A stretch of DNA of 64,000 nt, taken from assembly GCF_000026545.1 (NCBI RefSeq), contig NC_011601.1; one strand, given 5' to 3'. Each line of letters starts with the position of its first letter. Positions within the stretch are counted from its first letter, which is position 1. Positions 1-10,828 of the stretch are shown here, piece by piece. Below the pieces are notes generated by a model. That model did not search any database, was not told the origin of the DNA, and saw nothing but the letters and a program-made list of their open reading frames with translations. Source of the DNA: Escherichia coli O127:H6 str. E2348/69 (GTDB lineage Bacteria; Pseudomonadota; Gammaproteobacteria; Enterobacterales; Enterobacteriaceae). A program made the translations under genes and the position numbers.

Positions 1-1055
1 GCGCCAGTAAATGCGCCTTTAACATAACCGAACAGTTCGCTCTCCAGAAGCTGTTCCGGAATCGCGGCACAGTTGATAGCAATAAAAGGTTTATTCCGTC
101 TTCCGCTCAACTTATGGATTGCACGGGCGACGACTTCTTTACCCGTGCCGCTTTCACCAACCACCATAACGCTGGATGGGCTGGGTGCAATACGGCTAAT
201 GAGTCGTTTTAATTGCCGCATAACACGGCACTCGCCAACCAATTGTTCAATATGCGGTTCATCAGATGCATTTGCTACAGAAAAACTGGTATGCGATTGG
301 TGAAACGCCATTAAAAATAGTTGTCGGCCCTGGATGTTATGCAACTGACCAATGATTAATTCACTTTTATCATCCCACGAAACAATATGTTGCATATGAC
401 CATGGGTAAAATTACTCTCAAATGTTAATGGTCTGAAACGAACAGGTTTTCCAATAATATTATTTTGTACAACACCGAGTGTTTTTAAAGCTGTCTGATT
501 AACAAACTGAACCCGATTATCAGCATCAACCACTAACACGCCCTGATCCATATTATCGATCATGGTCGCGAATATTTTACTGATGTTATCTCCTGGTCCC
601 TGATCCTCCAGAAGTTTAGAAACAAAAATGGTGGATATATGGCGAACGTAATCGGAAAATTCGCGTAAATTATCACTGATATGTTCTTGTTGCTCGTGGG
701 TAACGGCAATCAAACTTATCACCCCAACACAACGTTCCTGTAAAATGACAGGCGTACCCAGAAATGCTTTTTCGCGGCAATTTTCTTTACTATCGCAACC
801 TTCACAAAGGGGATCGAAGCGAGACTGTGTCACAACTTTTTCAGTTTTCGTTTCCAGGACGTGGCGGAGCAGGCGTGAGTTGCCGCTCAACTGGCGGCCA
901 AGAAACTTCCCATACGCGCCCGTTCCGGCGACGCGACACAAGTTTTCATCAACGATCTCAACCTCAAGCTGCAAAACGCTGGCAAGCATTCTGGCAAAAC
1001 GCTGAATTGTCGGTTGAATTTGCATCAATACTGACTGCGTAGTCGCAAGCTCCAT
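1..1055 (-). CDS. ygeV: sigma-54-dependent transcriptional activator YgeV, N-terminal ~350 codons; 3' end lies beyond window start
   Basis: Minus-strand frame open to the window edge; translation from ATG near 1055 reads [17 protein letters not shown]+ Walker A segment [12 protein letters not shown] encoded near 140-175. Confidence 0.8.
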
Positions 1056-1424
1056 AGCTTTACCTTCCAGACTTACTTAAAAGTCGATCATTGAAGACGT
1101 TGATGGTTCACAGATCATGATGATATTAACTCAGGCGAAATTGGCTTTGATAAAAACATAAGATTTTTATCACTTTCTAATAAAATTATGGAAGAGATAT
1201 CACATTTCTATATCAATATGAGAATTACAGCGGCAAGTTTATCAAACTGAAGAGAGATAGCCTGCCTCTTTATCTTATTTCTGATACTTAGCAGCAAATA
1301 AATAACGTGATAAAAAAAGCCAAACGTTTTCGTATTTTAAAAACAACCGGAAACTGGCATCAATATGTGATCAACCCCACACATTATCCGTCAAATTAGC
1401 CTTTCGCAGCCGCGTGGATAATTC

Positions 1425-1441
1425 TGGCACACTTATTGTTA
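1425..1441 (+). promoter_or_regulatory. candidate sigma-54 (-24/-12) promoter for ygeW: TGGCAC-N5-TTGT, imperfect -12
   Basis: TGGCAC hexamer about 90 bp upstream of ygeW ATG, adjacent divergent bEBP gene ygeV; -12 GC not conserved. Confidence 0.25.
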
Positions 1442-1530
1442 GTCCCAGGTATAGCTGTGAAAACACCAATCACTTTGGCACGTCACAGTGAAATAAACCA
1501 CTTTGCCTGTCATTCCACTATCGAGACTTT

Positions 1531-2721
1531 ATGATGAAAACTGTTAATGAGCTGATTAAGGATATCAATTCGCTGACCTCTCACCTGCATGAAAAAGATT
1601 TTTTGTTAACGTGGGAACAGACGCCAGACGAACTGAAACAAGTACTGGACGTTGCCGCCGCGTTAAAAGCACTGCGTGCTGAAAACATCTCAACCAAAGT
1701 CTTTAATAGTGGATTAGGTATTTCCGTATTCCGCGACAATTCCACCCGTACCCGCTTCTCTTATGCTTCCGCGCTTAACCTGCTCGGCCTTGCACAACAA
1801 GATCTTGACGAAGGTAAATCACAAATCGCTCACGGCGAAACCGTGCGTGAAACCGCCAATATGATCTCCTTCTGCGCTGACGCTATCGGTATTCGCGACG
1901 ATATGTATCTGGGCGCAGGCAACGCCTATATGCGTGAAGTTGGCGCGGCACTTGATGACGGCTACAAACAAGGGGTTCTGCCACAGCGTCCGGCTTTAGT
2001 GAACCTGCAATGCGATATTGACCACCCGACTCAATCAATGGCTGATCTGGCATGGTTACGTGAACACTTTGGTTCACTGGAAAACCTGAAAGGTAAAAAA
2101 ATCGCCATGACCTGGGCCTACTCCCCAAGCTATGGCAAACCGCTCTCTGTACCACAAGGCATCATCGGTCTGATGACCCGCTTCGGTATGGATGTCACCC
2201 TGGCCCATCCGGAAGGCTACGACCTGATCCCGGATGTCGTTGAAGTTGCTAAAAACAATGCTAAAGCCTCCGGTGGTAGCTTCCGTCAGGTCACCAGCAT
2301 GGAAGAAGCCTTCAAAGACGCAGACATCGTTTATCCGAAGTCATGGGCACCTTACAAAGTGATGGAAGAGCGTACTGAATTGCTGCGTGCGAACGATCAC
2401 GAAGGCTTAAAAGCACTGGAAAAACAGTGTCTGGCACAGAACGCGCAACACAAAGACTGGCATTGTACTGAAGAGATGATGGAACTGACCCGTGATGGCG
2501 AAGCCCTGTACATGCACTGCCTGCCAGCTGATATCAGCGGCGTATCCTGCAAAGAAGGTGAAGTGACTGAAGGCGTATTCGAAAAATACCGTATCGCTAC
2601 CTACAAAGAAGCCAGCTGGAAGCCTTATATCATCGCCGCGATGATCCTGTCCCGTAAATACGCCAAACCAGGTGCACTGCTCGAGCAACTGCTGAAAGAA
2701 GCGCAAGAACGCGTGAAATAA
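1531..2721 (+). CDS. ygeW: carbamoyltransferase YgeW (transcarbamylase-like)
   Basis: 396-aa ORF MMKTVNELIKDINS; ATG start; recognised family. Confidence 0.9.
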   Translation: MMKTVNELIKDINSLTSHLHEKDFLLTWEQTPDELKQVLDVAAALKALRAENISTKVFNSGLGISVFRDNSTRTRFSYASALNLLGLAQQDLDEGKSQIAHGETVRETANMISFCADAIGIRDDMYLGAGNAYMREVGAALDDGYKQGVLPQRPALVNLQCDIDHPTQSMADLAWLREHFGSLENLKGKKIAMTWAYSPSYGKPLSVPQGIIGLMTRFGMDVTLAHPEGYDLIPDVVEVAKNNAKASGGSFRQVTSMEEAFKDADIVYPKSWAPYKVMEERTELLRANDHEGLKALEKQCLAQNAQHKDWHCTEEMMELTRDGEALYMHCLPADISGVSCKEGEVTEGVFEKYRIATYKEASWKPYIIAAMILSRKYAKPGALLEQLLKEAQERVK

Positions 2722-2727
2722 CCCCTC

Positions 2728-2757
2728 GGGCCGATCAGCTGGTCGGCCCTCTATTTC
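2728..2757 (+). terminator. hairpin gggccga/tcggccc after ygeW, weak T tract
   Basis: Inverted repeat directly after ygeW stop. Confidence 0.35.
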
Positions 2758-2778
2758 CAGAGGCCAAAAGGATAGGAT

Positions 2779-3975
2779 ATGTCCGTTTTCTCATTGAAGA
2801 TTGATATCGCCGATAACAAATTTTTCAACGGCGAAACATCACCGCTTTTTTCGCAAAGCCAGGCAAAACTGGCACGCCAGTTCCACCAGAAAATTGCTGG
2901 TTATCACCCAACACCGCTTTGTGCGCTGGACGATCTCGCAAACCTGTTTGGTGTAAAGAAAATTCTCGTCAAAGACGAATCAAAACGATTCGGTCTGAAC
3001 GCCTTCAAAATGCTCGGCGGTGCGTACGCCATCGCTCAATTATTGTGTGAAAAATATCATCTTGATATCGAAACGCTGTCATTTGAGCACCTGAAAAATG
3101 CCATCGGCGAAAAAATGACTTTCGCGACTACCACCGACGGCAACCACGGGCGCGGTGTGGCATGGGCAGCACAGCAACTCGGACAGAATGCGGTGATTTA
3201 CATGCCGAAAGGTTCTGCTCAGGAACGCGTTGACGCCATTCTAAACCTCGGTGCCGAGTGCATCGTCACGGATATGAACTATGACGATACCGTTCGCCTG
3301 ACCATGCAACACGCGCAGCAGCACGGCTGGGAAGTGGTACAGGACACGGCATGGGAAGGCTACACCAAAATCCCAACCTGGATCATGCAAGGCTACGCAA
3401 CACTGGCGGATGAAGCCGTCGAGCAAATGCGTGAAATGGGCGTAACCCCGACACACGTTCTGCTGCAAGCCGGTGTCGGTGCAATGGCCGGTGGTGTGCT
3501 GGGTTATCTGGTCGACGTCTATAGCCCGCAAAATCTGCACAGCATTATTGTTGAACCTGACAAAGCTGACTGTATTTATCGCTCCGGCGTCAAAGGCGAC
3601 ATCGTCAACGTTGGCGGTGATATGGCCACCATCATGGCGGGCCTGGCCTGTGGCGAACCTAACCCGCTGGGCTGGGAAATCCTACGTAACTGCGCCACCC
3701 AATTCATCTCTTGCCAGGACAGCGTTGCCGCATTAGGTATGCGCGTGCTGGGTAATCCGTACGGTAACGACCCGCGCATCATCTCCGGTGAATCCGGCGC
3801 TGTCGGTTTGGGCGTTCTCGCAGCGGTTCATTATCACCCGCAACGTCAAAGCCTGATGGAAAAACTGGCGCTGAACAAAGATGCCGTGGTGCTGGTTATC
3901 AGCACTGAAGGCGACACCGACGTGAAGCACTACCGCGAAGTTGTCTGGGAAGGCAAACACGCTGTAGCACCTTAA
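2779..3975 (+). CDS. ygeX: PLP-dependent 2,3-diaminopropionate ammonia-lyase
   Basis: 398-aa ORF; fold type II PLP enzyme family; position after ygeW. Confidence 0.9.
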   Translation: MSVFSLKIDIADNKFFNGETSPLFSQSQAKLARQFHQKIAGYHPTPLCALDDLANLFGVKKILVKDESKRFGLNAFKMLGGAYAIAQLLCEKYHLDIETLSFEHLKNAIGEKMTFATTTDGNHGRGVAWAAQQLGQNAVIYMPKGSAQERVDAILNLGAECIVTDMNYDDTVRLTMQHAQQHGWEVVQDTAWEGYTKIPTWIMQGYATLADEAVEQMREMGVTPTHVLLQAGVGAMAGGVLGYLVDVYSPQNLHSIIVEPDKADCIYRSGVKGDIVNVGGDMATIMAGLACGEPNPLGWEILRNCATQFISCQDSVAALGMRVLGNPYGNDPRIISGESGAVGLGVLAAVHYHPQRQSLMEKLALNKDAVVLVISTEGDTDVKHYREVVWEGKHAVAP

Positions 3976-4032
3976 TCACCCTATTGGAACTGCTCCCTGC
4001 AAAACGGGGAGTAAAAAATCTGGAGAAAAATA

Positions 4033-5244
4033 ATGGCTAAGAATATTCCATTCAAACTGATTCTTGAAAAAGCAAAAGATTACCAGGCAGACATGACTCG
4101 CTTCCTGCGCGATATGGTTGCTATTCCCAGTGAAAGCTGCGACGAGAAACGCGTAGTACATCGTATTAAAGAAGAGATGGAAAAAGTCGGCTTCGATAAA
4201 GTTGAAATCGACCCAATGGGCAACGTTCTCGGTTATATCGGCCACGGCCCGCGTCTGGTGGCAATGGACGCTCATATCGATACAGTCGGCATTGGCAACA
4301 TCAAAAACTGGGACTTCGATCCGTATGAAGGCATGGAAACCGACGAGCTGATCGGTGGTCGTGGTACTTCCGACCAGGAAGGCGGCATGGCGTCTATGGT
4401 ATATGCCGGAAAAATCATTAAAGATCTCGGTCTGGAAGATGAATATACCCTGCTGGTCACCGGTACTGTGCAGGAAGAAGACTGCGACGGTCTGTGCTGG
4501 CAATACATTATTGAACAATCCGGCATTCGCCCGGAATTTGTGGTCAGTACCGAACCAACCGACTGCCAGGTATACCGTGGTCAACGCGGTCGTATGGAAA
4601 TTCGCATTGATGTTCAGGGTGTTAGCTGCCACGGTTCGGCACCAGAACGTGGTGATAACGCCATTTTCAAAATGGGTCCAATTCTTGGCGAATTACAGGA
4701 ACTGTCTCAACGTCTGGGCTATGACGAATTCCTCGGCAAAGGTACGCTGACTGTTTCTGAAATCTTCTTCACCTCCCCAAGTCGTTGCGCTGTAGCAGAC
4801 AGCTGCGCAGTTTCAATCGACCGTCGTCTGACCTGGGGCGAAACCTGGGAAGGCGCGCTGGACGAGATCCGCGCTCTACCTGCAGTACAGAAAGCTAACG
4901 CGGTTGTTTCTATGTACAACTACGACCGCCCGTCCTGGACTGGCCTGGTTTACCCAACCGAATGCTACTTCCCGACCTGGAAAGTGGAAGAAGATCACTT
5001 CACCGTTAAAGCACTGGTGAATGCTTATGAAGGGCTGTTTGGTAAAGCGCCTGTCGTTGATAAGTGGACCTTCTCGACTAATGGCGTATCCATCATGGGT
5101 CGCCACGGCATTCCGGTCATCGGTTTTGGCCCTGGTAAAGAACCGGAAGCGCACGCGCCAAACGAAAAAACCTGGAAATCTCACCTGGTAACCTGTGCCG
5201 CTATGTACGCTGCAATCCCATTAAGCTGGCTGGCAACCGAATAA
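4033..5244 (+). CDS. ygeY: M20-family peptidase / amidohydrolase YgeY
   Basis: 403-aa [41 protein letters not shown] tggag upstream. Confidence 0.9.
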
Positions 5245-5261
5245 TTACTCTTCACTTATTC

Positions 5262-5286
5262 CCCTCCGGTTCGCCGGAGGGTTTTT
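5262..5286 (+). terminator. rho-independent terminator-like hairpin (ccctccgg-ttcg-ccggaggg + TTTTT) immediately upstream of hyuA
   Basis: Perfect 8-bp stem, tetraloop, T5 run; overlaps hyuA RBS region. Confidence 0.55.
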
Positions 5287-5296
5287 GGAGTTTGCT

Positions 5297-6682
5297 ATGC
5301 GCGTATTGATAAAAAACGGCATTGTTGTTAATGCAGATGGACAGGCGAAGCAGGATTTGCTGATTGAAAGCGGGATTGTTCGCCAGTTGGGTACCGATAT
5401 TTCGCCGCAACTCCCTTGCGAAGAAATTGATGCCTCTGGCTGTTACGTTTTCCCTGGCGGCGTGGATGTCCATACGCATTTCAATATTGATGTCGGCATC
5501 GCGCGCAGTTGTGATGATTTTTTTACCGGTACCCGCGCTGCTGCGTGTGGCGGTACAACAACCATTATTGACCATATGGGATTTGGCCCAAATGGCTGCC
5601 GGTTACGCCATCAACTGGAAGTTTATCGCGGTTATGCCGCCCACAAAGCAGTCATCGACTACAGCTTTCACGGTGTCATTCAACATATTAATCACGCTAT
5701 CCTCGACGAAATTCCGATGATGGTTGAGGAAGGACTGAGCAGTTTTAAACTCTATTTAACCTATCAATATAAACTCAACGATGATGAAGTGTTGCAGGCA
5801 TTACGCCGCTTGCATGAGTCCGGCGCGCTGACCACCGTACACCCGGAAAATGACGCAGCTATCGCCAGCAAGCGGGCGGAGTTTATCGCCGCAGGGTTAA
5901 CCGCGCCGCGTTATCATGCCTTGAGTCGACCTCTGGAATGCGAAGCGGAAGCCATCGCCCGCATGATTAACCTGGCACAAATTGCCGGTAACGCCCCGCT
6001 CTATATCGTGCACCTGTCTAACGGCTTAGGTCTGGATTATCTGCGTCTTGCCCGTGCGAATCACCAGCCAGTCTGGGTTGAAACCTGCCCACAATATCTC
6101 CTGTTGGACGAACGCAGTTACGATACAGAAGATGGCATGAAGTTCATTCTTAGCCCACCGCTGCGTAACGTACGCGAGCAGGACAAACTGTGGTGTGGCA
6201 TCAGCGATGGTGCGATTGACGTGGTGGCAACCGATCACTGCACCTTCTCGATGGCTCAACGCCTTCAAATTTCTAAAGGCGATTTCAGCCGCTGCCCAAA
6301 TGGCTTACCCGGTGTGGAGAACCGCATGCAACTGCTGTTCTCCAGTGGCGTGATGACGGGACGTATCTCACCGGAGCGTTTTGTTGAGTTAACCAGTGCA
6401 ATGCCCGCCAGGCTGTTTGGCCTGTGGCCACAAAAAGGATTATTAGCGCCCGGTTCCGATGGCGACGTGGTGATTATAGACCCACGTCAGAGCCAACAAA
6501 TTCAGCATCGCCATCTCCACGACAACGCTGACTACTCGCCATGGGAGGGTTTTACCTGTCAGGGCGCGATTGTCAGAACCTTATCCCGTGGTGAAATGAT
6601 TTTCTGCGACGGCACCTTTACAGGCAAAGCCGGGCGAGGTCGTTTCCTGCGACGCAAACCGTTTGTCCCTCCCGTGCTCTAA
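5297..6682 (+). CDS. hyuA: D-phenylhydantoinase / dihydropyrimidinase-like amidohydrolase
   Basis: ORF-track start at 5285 is a TTG; first ATG at 5297 preceded by ggag gives 461 aa MRVLIKNGIVVNADG; metal-binding DVHTH motif. Confidence 0.88.
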   Translation: MRVLIKNGIVVNADGQAKQDLLIESGIVRQLGTDISPQLPCEEIDASGCYVFPGGVDVHTHFNIDVGIARSCDDFFTGTRAAACGGTTTIIDHMGFGPNGCRLRHQLEVYRGYAAHKAVIDYSFHGVIQHINHAILDEIPMMVEEGLSSFKLYLTYQYKLNDDEVLQALRRLHESGALTTVHPENDAAIASKRAEFIAAGLTAPRYHALSRPLECEAEAIARMINLAQIAGNAPLYIVHLSNGLGLDYLRLARANHQPVWVETCPQYLLLDERSYDTEDGMKFILSPPLRNVREQDKLWCGISDGAIDVVATDHCTFSMAQRLQISKGDFSRCPNGLPGVENRMQLLFSSGVMTGRISPERFVELTSAMPARLFGLWPQKGLLAPGSDGDVVIIDPRQSQQIQHRHLHDNADYSPWEGFTCQGAIVRTLSRGEMIFCDGTFTGKAGRGRFLRRKPFVPPVL

Positions 6683-6729
6683 CCACTGCCAGGGATCTAT
6701 ACACAATCAAGAATGATGAGTGAGGAAAA

Positions 6730-7662
6730 ATGAGTAAGAAAATTGTTCTCGCCCTGGGCGGGAATGCGCTGGGCGATGACCTGGCTGGGCAAATGAAAGC
6801 GGTAAAAATTACTTCTCAGGCACTTGTTGATTTAATTGCCCAGGGACATGAGGTCATCGTCACTCATGGCAACGGGCCACAGGTGGGCATGATTAACCAG
6901 GCCTTTGAAGCTGCCGCAAAAACTGAAGCGCATTCGCCAATGCTGCCGATGTCTGTTTGTGTTGCCTTAAGCCAGGGTTATATTGGTTACGATCTACAAA
7001 ACGCCTTAAGAGAAGAACTGCTTTCTCGTGGCATTAATAAACCTGTAGCAACGCTGGTTACCCAGGTCGAAGTCGATGCTAACGATCCGGCATTCCTCAA
7101 CCCGACCAAGCCGATCGGTTCGTTCTTTACCGAGCAAGAAGCAGAGCTACTGACAAAACAGGGTTACACTCTGAAAGAAGATGCGGGTCGCGGCTATCGT
7201 CGTGTCGTTGCTTCGCCAAAACCAGTTGATATCATTGAAAAAGAAACGGTTAAAGCTCTGGTAGATGCCGGACAGGTGGTGATCACCGTTGGCGGTGGTG
7301 GTATCCCTGTTATTCGTGAAGGTAACCATCTGCGTGGTGCCAGCGCGGTTATCGATAAAGACTGGGCCAGTGCCCGTTTAGCAGAAATGATCGATGCCGA
7401 TATGCTGATCATTCTGACTGCGGTAGAAAAAGTGGCCATTAACTTCGGAAAAGAGAATGAACAGTGGCTCGATCGCCTGTCATTAAGTGATGCTGAACGC
7501 TTTATCGAAGAAGGTCATTTTGCGAAAGGTTCTATGCTGCCTAAAGTGGAAGCTGCCGCCTCGTTTGCTCGCTCTCGCGCAGGTCGTGAAGCACTGATTA
7601 CCGTATTGAGCAAAGCGAAAGAAGGGATTGAAGGCAAAACCGGAACGGTGATTTGTCAGTAA
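6730..7662 (+). CDS. yqeA: carbamate kinase-like protein YqeA
   Basis: 310-aa ORF MSKKIVLALGGNALG; amino-acid kinase fold. Confidence 0.9.
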   Translation: MSKKIVLALGGNALGDDLAGQMKAVKITSQALVDLIAQGHEVIVTHGNGPQVGMINQAFEAAAKTEAHSPMLPMSVCVALSQGYIGYDLQNALREELLSRGINKPVATLVTQVEVDANDPAFLNPTKPIGSFFTEQEAELLTKQGYTLKEDAGRGYRRVVASPKPVDIIEKETVKALVDAGQVVITVGGGGIPVIREGNHLRGASAVIDKDWASARLAEMIDADMLIILTAVEKVAINFGKENEQWLDRLSLSDAERFIEEGHFAKGSMLPKVEAAASFARSRAGREALITVLSKAKEGIEGKTGTVICQ

Positions 7663-7668
7663 TTTAAA

Positions 7669-7700
7669 GGCCGGATGGGTAATACCATCCGGCCATTTTC
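7669..7700. terminator. bidirectional terminator hairpin between convergent yqeA and yqeB
   Basis: ggccggatgg-gtaata-ccatccggcc inverted repeat flanked by A/T runs. Confidence 0.55.
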
Positions 7701-7702
7701 AT

Positions 7703-9328
7703 TTAAGCCACTTCCAGCACTTCTTTTGTCGCTTTAACGCCCTGATGCATCAACATCATTAACGCCTCAAGTACGCCGCCGCCAATCGCCCGGGCTTTAT
7801 CAGAAACGCTGGTGAAATCAGCCGTTTCACCACGAGGATCGATATCACCAATTTTAAAACCACCGACCACGGCCAGTCCGTCGTTCAACAAGCCACGCAC
7901 CATCCCCGTCAACGGTGCTTTAATTTCATGCTCACCAATCCAGGCAATGACATCGCCCTCTTTCACCAGATCGCCTAATTTCACGTTGGATCGCATAATG
8001 CCTGCAGCAGGAGCGCGGATCACTCGTCGGGTGGTATGCCCCATAATATTGCCGGGAACACCGGTATTCTCCTGCGCACAACCTGAGTAAATCACCTGAC
8101 CGAGCCAGTGCCCGCGATTTGTTTCAATTACCGCATGACAATCCTTCCCTGCAGTAAAGCCCGGCCCAAGCGCGATTGTTACTGGTGCCATATCTGCCCG
8201 CGTTCCCAAATTCTGTTTCGCCAGAATAGCGTCCACCACGCAAAGCGGTTTCAGTTCATCAAGCAATGAACAGGTGGGATCTACCATCACAGGGATAAAT
8301 CCGCGTTCGGTAAGTTTCATCGCTTCCGCAGAGCTGGTTGCCAGGCGGGCGGTGACGCCTTCGACCGTCATTTCGCCATCGAACACGGCCTGGGCAAACG
8401 CCACGGTACAACGAATCACTGTCGGTTTTTCCACTTCCAACATGATCACTTTAAAACCCGCATGATACAGACGTAGCGCTACACCACTGGCGATATCCCC
8501 CGCACCGCGAATCACCACCAGCTGGTGTCCGGAAGGATGAGAAGGCTTCATCATCAGCCCACCCGGCGCGTTATTTTTCACCTGTAATATTTCTGCCAGC
8601 ACGCTGATGGCGATCTCCTGCGGCGTTTCCGCACCTATGTTGTAACCAACGGGCGCATGTAAACGGGCAATATGTTCTTCAGCCACGCCTTTCTCACGCA
8701 ATTGGTGCAGGAAAAGCTGAACCTTGCGGCGACTTGCCAGCAACCCCAGCCATGCAATGGGTTGTTCAATGAGTTTGTCGAGGGCTTCACGATCCTGATT
8801 ATTCGTGGCAATCAGGACAAAATTATCAGGGCGAATATCCAGTGCTTCCACTGCCGCACCAAACGACTCAGCATGGAGAAGCGTGGTTGATGGTGGGAAT
8901 AGTTCAGGATTGAGGCTTTCGCGATAAATATCGGCAACGGCGATATCAAATCCTAATAGCGCCGCACTCTGGGCTATCGCCCGGTTGACATGCCCCGCAC
9001 CAATCAACACCAGACGTGGACGCATACCATGGACGCTGATAAATACTGACATTGCACCTCCACAATCTGACCCGACAGCATCCGCACCGTTACGAGCCAT
9101 ACGTCCATGGAATAATCGCGGCTTACGTTCCTGCAATGCCTGAAGCGACTCTTCAATCACCTTCCGCTCAACCATTCCGCCACCAATTGTACCGACGATA
9201 GAACCATCGGCGCGCACTAACATTTGTGCAGAATGGCGGGGGGTTGAGCCTCGGCTATCAACAATTTGCGCCATCGCAAACGGACAATTTTGCTCTTCGA
9301 GTTTTGCAGCCTCTGTGAAAATATTCAT
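7703..9328 (-). CDS. yqeB: XdhC/CoxI-family accessory protein YqeB (selenium-dependent molybdenum hydroxylase maturation marker)
   Basis: 541-aa ORF; Rossmann-like GAGHV motif; conserved neighbourhood with yqeC/ygfJ/ygfK. Confidence 0.88.
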   Translation of the reverse strand: MNIFTEAAKLEEQNCPFAMAQIVDSRGSTPRHSAQMLVRADGSIVGTIGGGMVERKVIEESLQALQERKPRLFHGRMARNGADAVGSDCGGAMSVFISVHGMRPRLVLIGAGHVNRAIAQSAALLGFDIAVADIYRESLNPELFPPSTTLLHAESFGAAVEALDIRPDNFVLIATNNQDREALDKLIEQPIAWLGLLASRRKVQLFLHQLREKGVAEEHIARLHAPVGYNIGAETPQEIAISVLAEILQVKNNAPGGLMMKPSHPSGHQLVVIRGAGDIASGVALRLYHAGFKVIMLEVEKPTVIRCTVAFAQAVFDGEMTVEGVTARLATSSAEAMKLTERGFIPVMVDPTCSLLDELKPLCVVDAILAKQNLGTRADMAPVTIALGPGFTAGKDCHAVIETNRGHWLGQVIYSGCAQENTGVPGNIMGHTTRRVIRAPAAGIMRSNVKLGDLVKEGDVIAWIGEHEIKAPLTGMVRGLLNDGLAVVGGFKIGDIDPRGETADFTSVSDKARAIGGGVLEALMMLMHQGVKATKEVLEVA

Positions 9329-9375
9329 ACCAACCTCAATGGATATCCTTTCAGTAACCCGGAATACCCGGGCCG

Positions 9376-10146
9376 CTAATTCACAAATCTGCGCGCGATT
9401 GCAGGATGTTCTTGTATATCGCCCAGCCAGATTGCCTCTACGTTGTGTTGTTGCAGCGGTTGAAGGAGCTCGCTTTGCGCAATCGCATTCTCACATTGAG
9501 AAAAACGGTTAATGAACCAGACTCGCCGACAACCTTGCGGTACGTTTTTAAACGCCCCCTGAGGGTGGCGAACCAGCGCAACGAGATCGCTCAGTTGCAA
9601 GGGTGCATCAGGTGTTAACCCAGTAATATCAGCAAACTGCGACCAGCGATGGACATTTTCTGTGCTCACTTTCGCACCCAAAATATGTCCTCCCATCACA
9701 GCAATCACGCAGCAACTGCTTTTAGGTATGCAAGGTTCGTGCTCATCAGGCGCTTTTAACGGCATTCCACGCGAGCCATCTGCCTCAATGAGAATTACGT
9801 CACACTCTGGTCGTTGTACCAGTGCATCAATCGCTTCTGGCGTAAATCCCTGCACTTTTCCCTGGTTCGCTTTCCAGCAGTGAAAACAAAATGAAATGGG
9901 GGATATAAAAGACGCATGAGGAAGCATGGCGGGATCACGACAGAAAACCACGGGCCAGTGAGATGTTGGCATAAACATATGTGTCGTCGTAGTGATTAAT
10001 ACACGCCTGCCACTCGCCTGGAACAGTTCTGCCAGCCAAAAAAGCAAGCTGGTTTTCCCCCCAGCACCAACAATAGAAATCACAGTGGGACGTTTCTGCG
10101 CGCCTAAATCAATGAATAATGCCGATGGGTCAATTATACTTTTCAC
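9376..10146 (-). CDS. yqeC: putative selenium cofactor biosynthesis protein YqeC
   Basis: 256-aa ORF with P-loop GAGGKTS. Confidence 0.85.
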   Translation of the reverse strand: MKSIIDPSALFIDLGAQKRPTVISIVGAGGKTSLLFWLAELFQASGRRVLITTTTHMFMPTSHWPVVFCRDPAMLPHASFISPISFCFHCWKANQGKVQGFTPEAIDALVQRPECDVILIEADGSRGMPLKAPDEHEPCIPKSSCCVIAVMGGHILGAKVSTENVHRWSQFADITGLTPDAPLQLSDLVALVRHPQGAFKNVPQGCRRVWFINRFSQCENAIAQSELLQPLQQHNVEAIWLGDIQEHPAIARRFVN

Positions 10147-10249
10147 GCGTCTTTATGGACCTCTCTGGGATAAATTACCCTCAACGTAATCCATCAGGAA
10201 GTAACGCAATTATCAGGCGTTATTAGCTCCTGTAAATAATGGAATCACT

Positions 10250-10828
10250 ATGTCAGCCATCGACTGTATAATTACCGCCGCAGGATTATCATCAAGAATG
10301 GGGCAATGGAAAATGATGTTACCCTGGCAACAGGGAACAATTCTTGATACAAGTATCAAAAATGCGTTGCAGTTTTGTAGCCGAATTATTTTAGTCACCG
10401 GCTATCGTGGTAATGAACTGCACGAACGTTATGCGAACCAGAGCAATATCACTATTATCCACAACCCAGATTATGCGCAGGGTTTACTGACATCAGTAAA
10501 GGCCGCAGTACCCGCGGTGCAAACAGAACATTGTTTTCTCACCCACGGAGATATGCCAACCCTCACCATCGATATTTTTAGAAAAATCTGGTCGTTACGA
10601 AATGATGGCGCAATACTGCCACTCCATAATGGCATCCCCGGCCATCCGATTTTAGTGTCAAAACCATGCCTGATGCAGGCAATCCAGCGACCCAATGTCA
10701 CCAATATGCGTCAGGCACTCCTTATGGGAGAACATTATTCCGTCGAAATAGAAAATGCAGAAATAATTTTAGATATTGATACTCCTGACGACTTTATTAC
10801 AGCGAAGAAAAGGTATACTGAAATTTAG
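10250..10828 (+). CDS. mocA: molybdenum cofactor cytidylyltransferase
   Basis: 192-aa ORF MSAIDCIITAAGLSSRMG; MobA-like nucleotidyltransferase. Confidence 0.88.
   Translation: MSAIDCIITAAGLSSRMGQWKMMLPWQQGTILDTSIKNALQFCSRIILVTGYRGNELHERYANQSNITIIHNPDYAQGLLTSVKAAVPAVQTEHCFLTHGDMPTLTIDIFRKIWSLRNDGAILPLHNGIPGHPILVSKPCLMQAIQRPNVTNMRQALLMGEHYSVEIENAEIILDIDTPDDFITAKKRYTEI

What the first reader, a model, noticed from the sequence alone, without database searches (positions are those of the whole stretch)
5245..5300. Strong intrinsic-terminator hairpin immediately upstream of the hyuA start, overlapping its ribosome-binding region
ccctccgg-ttcg-ccggaggg followed by TTTTT lies between the ygeY stop and the hyuA ATG (5297). 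The hyuA Shine-Dalgarno (ggag) sits at the end of the T tract. This could partially terminate transcription between ygeY and hyuA, or the hairpin could mask translation initiation.
Basis: seen in the sequence. Interest (0 to 1): 0.3.

Follow-up and report, generated by a model that had tools for sequence, protein, structure and literature searches.

The report
Leaky terminator hairpin inside urate operon
Between two genes of the E. coli uric-acid breakdown operon lies an evolutionarily conserved RNA hairpin that in E. coli also has the U-run of a standard transcription terminator, so it most likely lowers the amount of the downstream genes' message; this is a real but ordinary kind of element.

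Summary
CCCTCCGG-TTCG-CCGGAGGG (5262-5281) followed by T5 (5282-5286) lies between the ygeY stop (5242-5244) and the hyuA SD GGAG (5287-5290) and ATG (5297). It is not chance: a strict hairpin+T-run scan finds 2 sites in the window against 0.025 in shuffles. The 52-nt spacer is nearly invariant in about 5,160 E. coli genomes, although the flanking codons differ.

In 24 Enterobacteriaceae genera the hairpin is kept through compensatory and G·U changes, so it is selected as sense-strand RNA. A stable hairpin separates ygeY and hyuA in most of 73 loci from gamma- and beta-proteobacteria.

The U-tract is not conserved. E. coli scores like a mapped terminator (tail score -4.71), whereas most relatives have only UCU before the SD (median -2.76).

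The SD lies outside the stem, and a test for conserved SD masking was negative. No promoter-like site precedes hyuA, and hyuA is listed in the same co-regulated gene set as ygeWXY.

Best reading: a leaky intra-operon intrinsic terminator that also gives ygeWXY mRNA a protective 3' stem-loop. No 3'-end data exist because the operon is silent in standard cultures. It is an ordinary element, a new member of a known kind.

The parts
4033..5244 (+). ygeY coding sequence (upstream gene); stop TAA at 5242-5244
   Evidence: ORF list; RefSeq annotation of the identical strain
5245..5261 (+). 17-nt C/U-rich single-stranded linker between the stop codon and the hairpin. It is long enough that a ribosome at the ygeY stop should not unwind the stem.
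   Evidence: Sequence. The stop-to-stem distance is 8-17 nt in 25 Enterobacteriaceae-type spacers. The ribosome reach is from general knowledge, not tested here.
5262..5281 (+). RNA hairpin: 8-bp stem (7 G-C, 1 U-A) with a UUCG loop
   Evidence: Covariation across 24 genera. Rare E. coli variants preserve the structure.
5282..5286 (+). U5 tract directly after the stem; predicted site of transcript release
   Evidence: TransTermHP-type tail score -4.71. One E. coli variant lengthens the run to T6.
5287..5290 (+). hyuA Shine-Dalgarno GGAG, abutting the U tract and outside the stem
   Evidence: GGAG or GAGG aligns in all 24 genera.
5297..6682 (+). hyuA coding sequence (downstream gene), ATG at 5297
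   Evidence: The tblastn alignments of orthologues start at residue 1.
2728..2749 (+). Sister hairpin in the ygeW-ygeX spacer (9 bp, -18.3 kcal/mol) with a weak T-rich tail
   Evidence: Conserved in relatives. Tail score -3.24.
3991..4013 (+). Sister hairpin in the ygeX-ygeY spacer (9 bp, -14.0 kcal/mol), followed by an A-run and no U tract
   Evidence: Present in only some relatives. Tail score -1.59.
7669..7694 (.). Operon-end hairpin between the convergent genes yqeA and yqeB (10 bp, -21.7 kcal/mol), terminator-like on both strands
   Evidence: Tail score on the + strand -3.32.
1425..1440 (+). Sigma-54-like -24/-12 element (TGGCACACTTATTGTT) upstream of ygeW; the likely source of the transcripts that reach the hairpin
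   Evidence: 1 mismatch. The literature places a sigma-54 promoter between ygeV and ygeW.

Best explanation
The element is a sense-strand RNA hairpin kept by selection in the ygeY-hyuA spacer of the uric-acid catabolic operon ygeW-ygeX-ygeY-hyuA-yqeA. In E. coli it is followed directly by five U, which gives it the full anatomy of a Rho-independent terminator.

Proposed mechanism: transcripts start at the YgeV/sigma-54 promoter upstream of ygeW. When RNA polymerase transcribes 5282-5290, the 8-bp G+C-rich stem forms. The ygeY stop lies 17 nt upstream of the stem, so the terminating ribosome should not prevent folding. A fraction of polymerases then release the RNA in the U tract. The released ygeWXY mRNA ends in a stem-loop that should protect it from 3' exonucleases. 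The remaining polymerases read through and make hyuA-yqeA mRNA, whose SD starts immediately after the U tract. The result would be less hyuA-yqeA message than ygeWXY message from one promoter.

Shown here: the anatomy, non-randomness, conservation, RNA-level and strand-specific selection, the absence of a promoter-like site for hyuA, and an SD outside the stem. Inferred: that termination occurs, that it is partial, and that it tunes enzyme ratios.
For: - Anatomy.
- Hairpin energy (-15.6 to -16.6 kcal/mol), loop 4 and tail score -4.71 lie within the values reported for Term-seq-mapped terminators: MFE medians -16.8 to -13.3, loop median 4, tail medians -5.5 to -4.7, E. coli third quartile -3.8 (PMC12207403).
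- A strict scan finds 2 sites in the window against 0.025 expected.
- The spacer is single-copy and nearly invariant in 5,163 E. coli genomes. There are 0 differences in 52 spacer columns against 7 in 79 flanking coding columns between the two haplotypes.
- The rare variants are loop changes, a C-to-U change giving a G·U pair, or a terminal G-to-T change that lengthens the T run.
- Covariation in 24 genera: 85.6% of cells paired, 6 of 9 pairs changed on both sides, 0/500 shuffles as high, slid controls 37-69%. Twelve G·U cells fit only the + strand RNA.
- ygeY-hyuA spacers are the most structured junction of the operon (median z -2.58; 77% at p<=0.05).
- No sigma-70-like or sigma-54-like site lies between ygeX and hyuA on the + strand.
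- hyuA is listed with ygeW, ygeX and ygeY in the YgeV iModulon.
- In vitro reconstitution used ten times less HyuA than YgeW or YgeY. This is circumstantial support for a lower HyuA requirement.
Against: - No RNA 3' end at this site appears in the Term-seq or SMRT-Cappable-seq supplements that could be searched. The operon is silent in those cultures, so this is absence of data rather than a negative result.
- In 22 of 25 Enterobacteriaceae-type spacers the equally conserved hairpin has no U tract (tail median -2.76; UCU then SD). The function that conserved the hairpin may therefore not be termination.
- The U tract is only five residues and is followed by GGAG, so efficiency cannot be predicted.
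- yqeA is not in the YgeV iModulon list, which is odd if it depends on the same read-through.
Confidence: 0.55

Rival explanations
1. The hairpin is mainly an mRNA stability or processing element, and termination is negligible. It would block 3'-to-5' exonucleases at the end of a ygeWXY segment. Alternatively, after an endonuclease cut in the A/U- and C/U-rich linker, it would cap the 5' end of hyuA-yqeA mRNA.
For: The hairpin, not the U tract, is what is conserved: 22 of 25 Enterobacteriaceae-type spacers have tail scores weaker than -3.8, and the same tool does not flag Kluyvera or K. oxytoca as terminator-like. Sister hairpins without U tracts sit in the ygeW-ygeX and ygeX-ygeY spacers. The hairpin sits at a constant 12-16 nt from the hyuA ATG in 25 spacers.
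Against: In E. coli the U5 run is present, fixed across the species and, where it varies, lengthened. A G+C-rich hairpin followed by U5 is expected to terminate at least partly (general knowledge). More distant families (Morganella, Hafnia) have T5-T6 runs at the same place. The constant position may simply reflect common descent of short spacers.
Confidence: 0.22
2. The element controls hyuA translation. The hairpin, or pairing of the SD with the linker just after the ygeY stop, hides the ribosome-binding site until a ribosome finishing ygeY opens it (translational coupling). Alternatively, the hairpin insulates hyuA initiation from ygeY.
For: In the window, the predicted probability that the SD is unpaired is 0.06. 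It rises to 0.90 if the first 14 nt after the stop are held single-stranded. The MFE of 5245-5300 includes a 5-bp lower stem that pairs GGAGU. The hairpin lies at -35 to -16 relative to the start codon, inside the region contacted by a 30S subunit (general knowledge).
Against: The SD and AUG are outside the conserved stem. Shuffling the linker leaves the SD just as paired (0.12), so the effect comes from composition and adds only 1-2 kcal/mol. Across 48 species the native linker masks the SD more than shuffles in only 1. The wider region 5200-5340 folds no better than shuffles (z -0.55).
Confidence: 0.08
3. The element is a complete terminator that ends a ygeWXY operon, and hyuA (with or without yqeA) is transcribed from its own promoter.
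For: One paper refers to 'the ygeWXY operons' when citing sigma-54 promoter predictions (PMC10602906). The internal hairpin has a better U tract (-4.71) than the hairpin at the end of yqeA (-3.32).
Against: The spacer is only 52 nt. No sigma-70-like or sigma-54-like site was found on the + strand between 2885 and 7554. hyuA is listed in the same iModulon as ygeW, ygeX and ygeY. Others treat ygeW-arcC as one operon (bioRxiv 10.1101/2022.12.12.520169). The ygeY-hyuA adjacency is kept in 76 of 80 loci.
Confidence: 0.08
4. The element is a chance inverted repeat, or a DNA-level palindrome such as a protein-binding site, with no RNA function.
For: The lenient terminator scan is not enriched in this region. 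The stem is a perfect DNA palindrome that folds equally well on either strand.
Against: The strict scan gives 2 sites against 0.025 expected. The stem sequence differs between families while the pairing is kept. G·U pairs (12 cells) would be A/C mismatches on the other strand or in a DNA half-site model. The spacer is invariant within E. coli.
Confidence: 0.02

Closest known systems
Canonical Rho-independent (intrinsic) terminators of E. coli, as mapped by Term-seq and modelled by TransTermHP
   Same: It has a G+C-rich 8-bp stem with G-C pairs at the base, a 4-nt loop, U5 immediately 3' of the stem, and a position 17 nt after a stop codon on the sense strand. Energy and tail score are within the published distributions.
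   Different: It lies inside a co-regulated gene cluster, 10 nt upstream of the next start codon, with the next gene's SD directly after the U tract. There is no experimental 3' end, and most orthologous hairpins lack the U tract.
Intra-operon attenuating terminators that set unequal expression of upstream and downstream genes (for example the rplL-rpoB attenuator, or the internal terminator of rpsU-dnaG-rpoD; own knowledge)
   Same: A terminator-like hairpin sits between co-transcribed genes, the downstream gene has no visible promoter, and read-through is needed for downstream expression.
   Different: Those examples have measured read-through and, in some cases, known modulators. Here partial read-through is inferred only from co-regulation lists.
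Intercistronic stabilising stem-loops (the REP/BIME elements of malE-malF; the puf operon hairpins of Rhodobacter; own knowledge)
   Same: A stable hairpin in a short spacer within an operon, conserved as structure, and able to protect the upstream segment's 3' end. Two further junctions of the same operon also carry hairpins.
   Different: It is not a repeated element: there is one copy per genome and one in the window. It is much shorter than BIME clusters, and differential decay has not been tested.
SD-sequestering translational operators and coupling hairpins (for example MS2 coat-replicase and RNA thermometers; own knowledge)
   Same: It lies within the upstream part of the ribosome-binding region. 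Its 3' arm contains an SD-like GGAGG paired to an anti-SD-like CCUCC.
   Different: The real SD and the start codon are not in the stem, and the conserved-masking test was negative.

Membership tests
Rho-independent (intrinsic) terminator | G+C-rich stem-loop (stem of at least 4-5 bp, loop 3-13 nt) on the transcribed strand | tested here: met
   8 bp, 7 G-C, loop 4; -15.6 kcal/mol; z -3.83
Rho-independent (intrinsic) terminator | U-rich tract immediately 3' of the stem | tested here: met
   U5 at 5282-5286. Tail score -4.71, against -3.8 for the third quartile and -4.7 to -5.5 for the medians of mapped terminators. Not met in 22 of 25 Enterobacteriaceae-type orthologues.
Rho-independent (intrinsic) terminator | Hairpin free to fold behind the polymerase (not covered by the terminating ribosome) | tested here: met
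   17 nt between the stop codon and the stem, and 8-17 nt in relatives. The ribosome reach of about 12-15 nt is from general knowledge.
Rho-independent (intrinsic) terminator | RNA 3' ends in the U tract in vivo, or termination in vitro | not testable with these tools
   Searched the supplements of PMC7815308, PMC12207403 and PMC6131387 for the genes and for K-12 coordinates 30100xx: nothing found. The operon is not expressed in those cultures.
Intra-operon attenuator (partial terminator) | Downstream gene depends on read-through (no promoter of its own) | tested here: inconclusive
   No sigma-70-like or sigma-54-like site before hyuA. Consensus scans cannot exclude a weak or atypical promoter.
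Intra-operon attenuator (partial terminator) | Flanking genes co-regulated but at different levels | tested here: inconclusive
   hyuA is listed with ygeW, ygeX and ygeY in the YgeV iModulon. Relative levels are not available: the CBT2.0 RNA-seq figure is held only as an image.
REP/BIME-type intercistronic stabiliser | Member of a dispersed family of repeated extragenic palindromes | tested here: not met
   One place per genome in 5,163 genomes; a single match in the window at up to 3 mismatches
SD-sequestering translational operator | SD and/or start codon base-paired within the conserved structure | tested here: not met
   The SD (5287-5290) and AUG (5297) lie 3' of the stem. Masking by the linker is no better than shuffles in 47 of 48 species.
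Described structured RNA families (riboswitches, leaders, sRNAs) in Rfam 15 | Match to a covariance model | tested here: not met
   No match at E<=1 in window 1-12000, and none at gathering score in 20 orthologous loci
Bacterial SECIS element (considered because YgeY is 'selenium metabolism-linked') | Hairpin immediately 3' of an in-frame UGA inside a reading frame | tested here: not met
   The codon before the hairpin is the ygeY terminator UAA (UAG or UGA in some relatives). The spacer length varies and is not in frame with hyuA.

The most novel reading that the evidence does not exclude
The ygeY-hyuA hairpin may not be primarily a terminator. It could be an ancient, selectively maintained intercistronic RNA module that controls hyuA-yqeA output conditionally, for example through factor- or metabolite-dependent antitermination or processing. 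On this reading the E. coli U5 version and the 60-nt two-helix Vibrionaceae version, which has conserved loop nucleotides and no Rfam family, would be variants of one regulatory device in the anaerobic purine pathway.
Probability: 0.1. Interest if true: 0.5.

Novelty: new member of a known kind. Interest (0 to 1): 0.25.

Why it matters
The ygeW-ygeX-ygeY-hyuA-yqeA genes were recently shown to carry out the late steps of anaerobic uric-acid degradation by gut bacteria, and strains are being engineered to over-express them against hyperuricaemia (PMC12507026; bioRxiv 10.1101/2025.04.24.650524). A leaky terminator in front of hyuA would cap HyuA and YqeA expression whatever promoter is placed upstream of ygeW. 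It is therefore a concrete, mutable target for pathway engineering. It would also settle whether the transcription unit is ygeWXY or ygeW-yqeA. As biology it is a routine example of expression tuning inside an operon.

Tried and rejected
- Rfam scans of the window and of 20 orthologous loci found nothing.
- The covariance model R1, built from 24 spacers, retrieved only its own training set plus reverse-strand fragments. Its alignment A4 was therefore not used for pair counts.
- Experimental 3' ends: the supplements of Adams 2021, TERMITe 2025 and SMRT-Cappable-seq 2018 contain neither the genes nor the coordinates. No supplements are held for Dar & Sorek 2018, the 3'-UTR valves paper, the nanopore paper or PRECISE-1K.
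- A full-text search for the hairpin sequence found no paper.
- The RNA-seq of the promoter-insertion strain CBT2.0 is available only as a figure image.
- SD masking or translational coupling through a lower stem was rejected as a conserved feature.
- Repeated element (REP/BIME): rejected.
- SECIS, programmed read-through or frameshift: rejected. The stop is UAA, spacer lengths are not multiples of three, and hyuA is in another frame.
- RNase III site: rejected on general knowledge, because an 8-12 bp stem is too short.
- Alternative in-frame TTG start at 5285 behind the GGAGG of the 3' arm: rejected. It is hidden in the stem and not conserved, and orthologue alignments start at the ATG.

Full report
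**Observation.**
- TAA of ygeY: 5242-5244.
- 17-nt C/U-rich linker: 5245-5261.
- CCCTCCGG / TTCG / CCGGAGGG: 5262-5281.
- TTTTT: 5282-5286.
- GGAG: 5287-5290.
- ATG of hyuA: 5297.

The scanning tool lists the hairpin as 8 pairs, 7 G-C, loop 4. The bare hairpin folds at -15.6 kcal/mol (z -3.83, no shuffle as good), and at -16.6 kcal/mol with flanks. The lenient terminator scan is not enriched in this region (17 found against 14.3 +/- 4.0), so I ran a strict one: perfect 8-bp stem, at least 6 G/C, loop 3-8, at least 5 T in 6. It finds two distinct sites on both strands of the 64-kb window, against 0.025 per dinucleotide shuffle. The element is real and not a chance match.

**Context.** The window is E. 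coli, 100% identical to strain MCJCHV-1. The gene order is xdhC, ygeV (-), ygeW, ygeX/dpaL, ygeY, hyuA, yqeA/arcC, yqeB (-). In K-12 the hairpin is at 3,009,993-3,010,012, and the spacer is identical. These genes encode late steps of anaerobic uric-acid degradation. A sigma-54-like element lies at 1425-1440 upstream of ygeW, in agreement with the literature.

**Conservation within E. coli.**
- The 70 bases around the spacer occur once per genome in 5,163 of 5,426 complete genomes.
- The surrounding 801 bases fall into two haplotypes about 6.5% apart.
- Between these haplotypes the 52 spacer columns show no difference, while 79 flanking coding columns show 7.
- The rare spacer variants found were loop changes (TTCG to TTCA or TTTA), a C-to-T change that turns a C-G pair into U·G, and a terminal G-to-T change that shortens the stem by one pair and lengthens the T run to six.
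- All of these preserve the structure and the terminator features.

**Conservation across genera.** A scan of one genome per species returned 80 loci with YgeY at 81-100% identity, from Enterobacterales, Aeromonas, Vibrionaceae, Shewanella and some Betaproteobacteria. hyuA follows ygeY in 76 of them.

In 24 Enterobacteriaceae-type spacers of 44-56 nt, an 8-12 bp hairpin (-11 to -24 kcal/mol) sits 8-17 nt after the stop and 12-16 nt before the ATG. On the unedited MAFFT alignment:
- 85.6% of cells pair;
- 6 of 9 pairs show changes on both sides;
- no shuffle out of 500 reaches the observed values;
- sliding the partner by 1-3 columns drops pairing to 37-69%.

Twelve cells are G·U pairs, which would be A/C mismatches on the other strand. 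Selection therefore acts on the sense-strand RNA, not on a DNA palindrome.

Over all loci the ygeY-hyuA spacer is the most structured junction of the operon:

| Junction | Median z against shuffles | Share at p<=0.05 |
|---|---|---|
| ygeY-hyuA | -2.58 | 77% |
| ygeW-ygeX | -1.90 | 57% |
| ygeX-ygeY | -0.93 | 26% |
| hyuA-yqeA | -0.11 | 12% |

Exceptions exist. Ferrimonas has a spacer of about 26 nt without a hairpin. In two beta-proteobacterial MAGs ygeY is followed directly by the carbamate kinase gene, with a 4-18 nt spacer.

**The U tract is not conserved.** I used the TransTermHP tail score as given in PMC12207403. In that paper, mapped terminators outside Streptomyces have medians of -5.5 to -4.7, and the E. 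coli third quartile is -3.8.
- E. coli scores -4.71. Its hairpin energy and loop length are also typical of mapped terminators.
- The 25 Enterobacteriaceae-type spacers have a median of -2.76. Only the two E. coli sequences and Serratia silvae pass -3.8.
- Most relatives read stem-UCU-GGAG. The same scanning tool that flags E. coli does not flag Kluyvera or K. oxytoca, but it does flag Morganella psychrotolerans, which has T6.
- T4-T6 runs occur in Morganella, Hafnia and, set back 1-3 nt from the stem, in Enterobacillus and Serratia sp. Ag1. By tail score (<= -3.8) only Morganella, Hafnia and Buttiauxella sp. A111 qualify among the other loci, so 8 of 63 spacers of 140 nt or less have a canonical tail.

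The hairpin is therefore the ancient, selected part, and E. coli carries a version that meets every sequence criterion of an intrinsic terminator. Its U tract is even better than that of the hairpin at the end of the operon (-3.32).

**Translation.** The SD and AUG lie outside the stem. The MFE of 5245-5300 adds a 5-bp lower stem between the linker and GGAGU. In the window the SD is predicted to be unpaired with probability 0.06, rising to 0.90 if the first 14 nt after the stop are held open. However, shuffled linkers give 0.12, so the effect comes from composition. Across 48 species the native linker masks the SD more than shuffles in only one. Masking of initiation is therefore not a conserved property and is at most a weak local effect.

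**Transcription unit.** No sigma-70-like site on the + strand lies near hyuA. No sigma-54-like site lies between 2885 and 7554. hyuA is listed with ygeW, ygeX and ygeY in the YgeV iModulon. One paper speaks of a ygeWXY operon and another of a ygeW-arcC operon. In vitro reconstitution used 0.2 mg/ml YgeW and YgeY but 0.02 mg/ml HyuA. That is compatible with, but does not prove, a lower need for HyuA.

**Mechanism.** The most likely mechanism (0.55) is a leaky intra-operon intrinsic terminator that also leaves ygeWXY mRNA with a protective 3' stem-loop, while read-through supplies hyuA-yqeA. The rivals are:
- a stability or processing hairpin with negligible termination (0.22), favoured by the U-less orthologues and by the sister hairpins at 2728-2749 and 3991-4013;
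- translational control (0.08);
- a full stop with a separate hyuA promoter (0.08);
- chance or a DNA site (0.02).

**Comparison and novelty.** The element passes the sequence-level membership tests for intrinsic terminators. It fails those for REP elements, SD-sequestering operators, Rfam families and SECIS. The functional test (3' ends) could not be made, because the operon is silent in all datasets I could search. I found no paper describing this hairpin. It is a new member of a known kind and of modest interest. Its practical value is for engineering the urate pathway and for fixing the operon boundary.

Noticed in passing
L077 4255-4315; L080 4255-4315; L087 4253-4310; L090 4285-4342; L079 4296-4358 (also L073, L078, L081, L082, L086, L088): In Vibrionaceae the ygeY-hyuA spacer is 200-315 nt and holds a conserved 58-63 nt element. 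It has two stacked helices (13 bp and 7 bp), and 7 of 20 pairs show changes on both sides in 10 sequences. The apical loop (UCUGCCUU) and a 3' internal loop (CUCAUAUCC) are conserved, and in most copies (8 of 11) a T-rich stretch such as AUUUUC or CUUUAU follows. No Rfam family matches. It may be an unnamed structured RNA or an elaborate terminator.
   Followed up: partly
window 2728-2749 and 3991-4013: The ygeW-ygeX and ygeX-ygeY spacers also carry stable hairpins (-18.3 and -14.0 kcal/mol; z -3.7 and -4.9). The first is conserved with compensatory changes in relatives. The second is lost in several genera that have 26-33 nt spacers. The arms of the second and of the focal hairpin resemble anti-SD and SD sequences (CUCCC / GGGAG).
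   Followed up: partly
window 6683-6729: The hyuA-yqeA spacer is 47 nt and unstructured in E. coli, but only 12 nt in most Enterobacteriaceae (tight coupling). yqeA is missing from the YgeV iModulon list that contains hyuA.
   Followed up: no
window 25143-25166 (+): This is the only other site in the window that passes the strict hairpin-plus-T-run scan (TCTCCGCGCC...GCGCGGAGA then TTTCTTTC). It lies antisense inside ygfT.
   Followed up: no
window 4900-5700: E. coli genomes split into two haplotypes for this stretch: at least 99% identity in 1,035 genomes and 90-95% in 4,104. Yet YgeY is the identical protein (WP_001107125.1) in representatives of both. The divergence is therefore almost wholly synonymous, or the region was exchanged by recombination.
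   Followed up: no
window 7663-7702, compared with K-12 3,012,394-3,012,613: yqeA and the convergent yqeB are 40 nt apart here, with one hairpin that is terminator-like on both strands (7669-7694). In K-12 the gap is 220 nt, so K-12 carries an insertion or this strain a deletion.
   Followed up: no
L046 4219-4353; L050 4219-4581: In two Serratia genomes the ygeY-hyuA spacer has been expanded to 135 and 363 nt by several copies of a palindromic CCCTCTCCC...GGGAGAGGG repeat. These look like REP-like mobile palindromes that landed in the spacer.
   Followed up: no
L083 4219-4236; L085 4216-4219; L064 1482-1764: In beta-proteobacterial MAGs that lack hyuA at this position, ygeY is followed by the carbamate kinase gene. 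In two cases the spacer is 4-18 nt with no hairpin. In one case a terminator-like hairpin (CACTCCGG...CCGGAGTG, then GTTTT) is followed by a 283-nt gap.
   Followed up: partly
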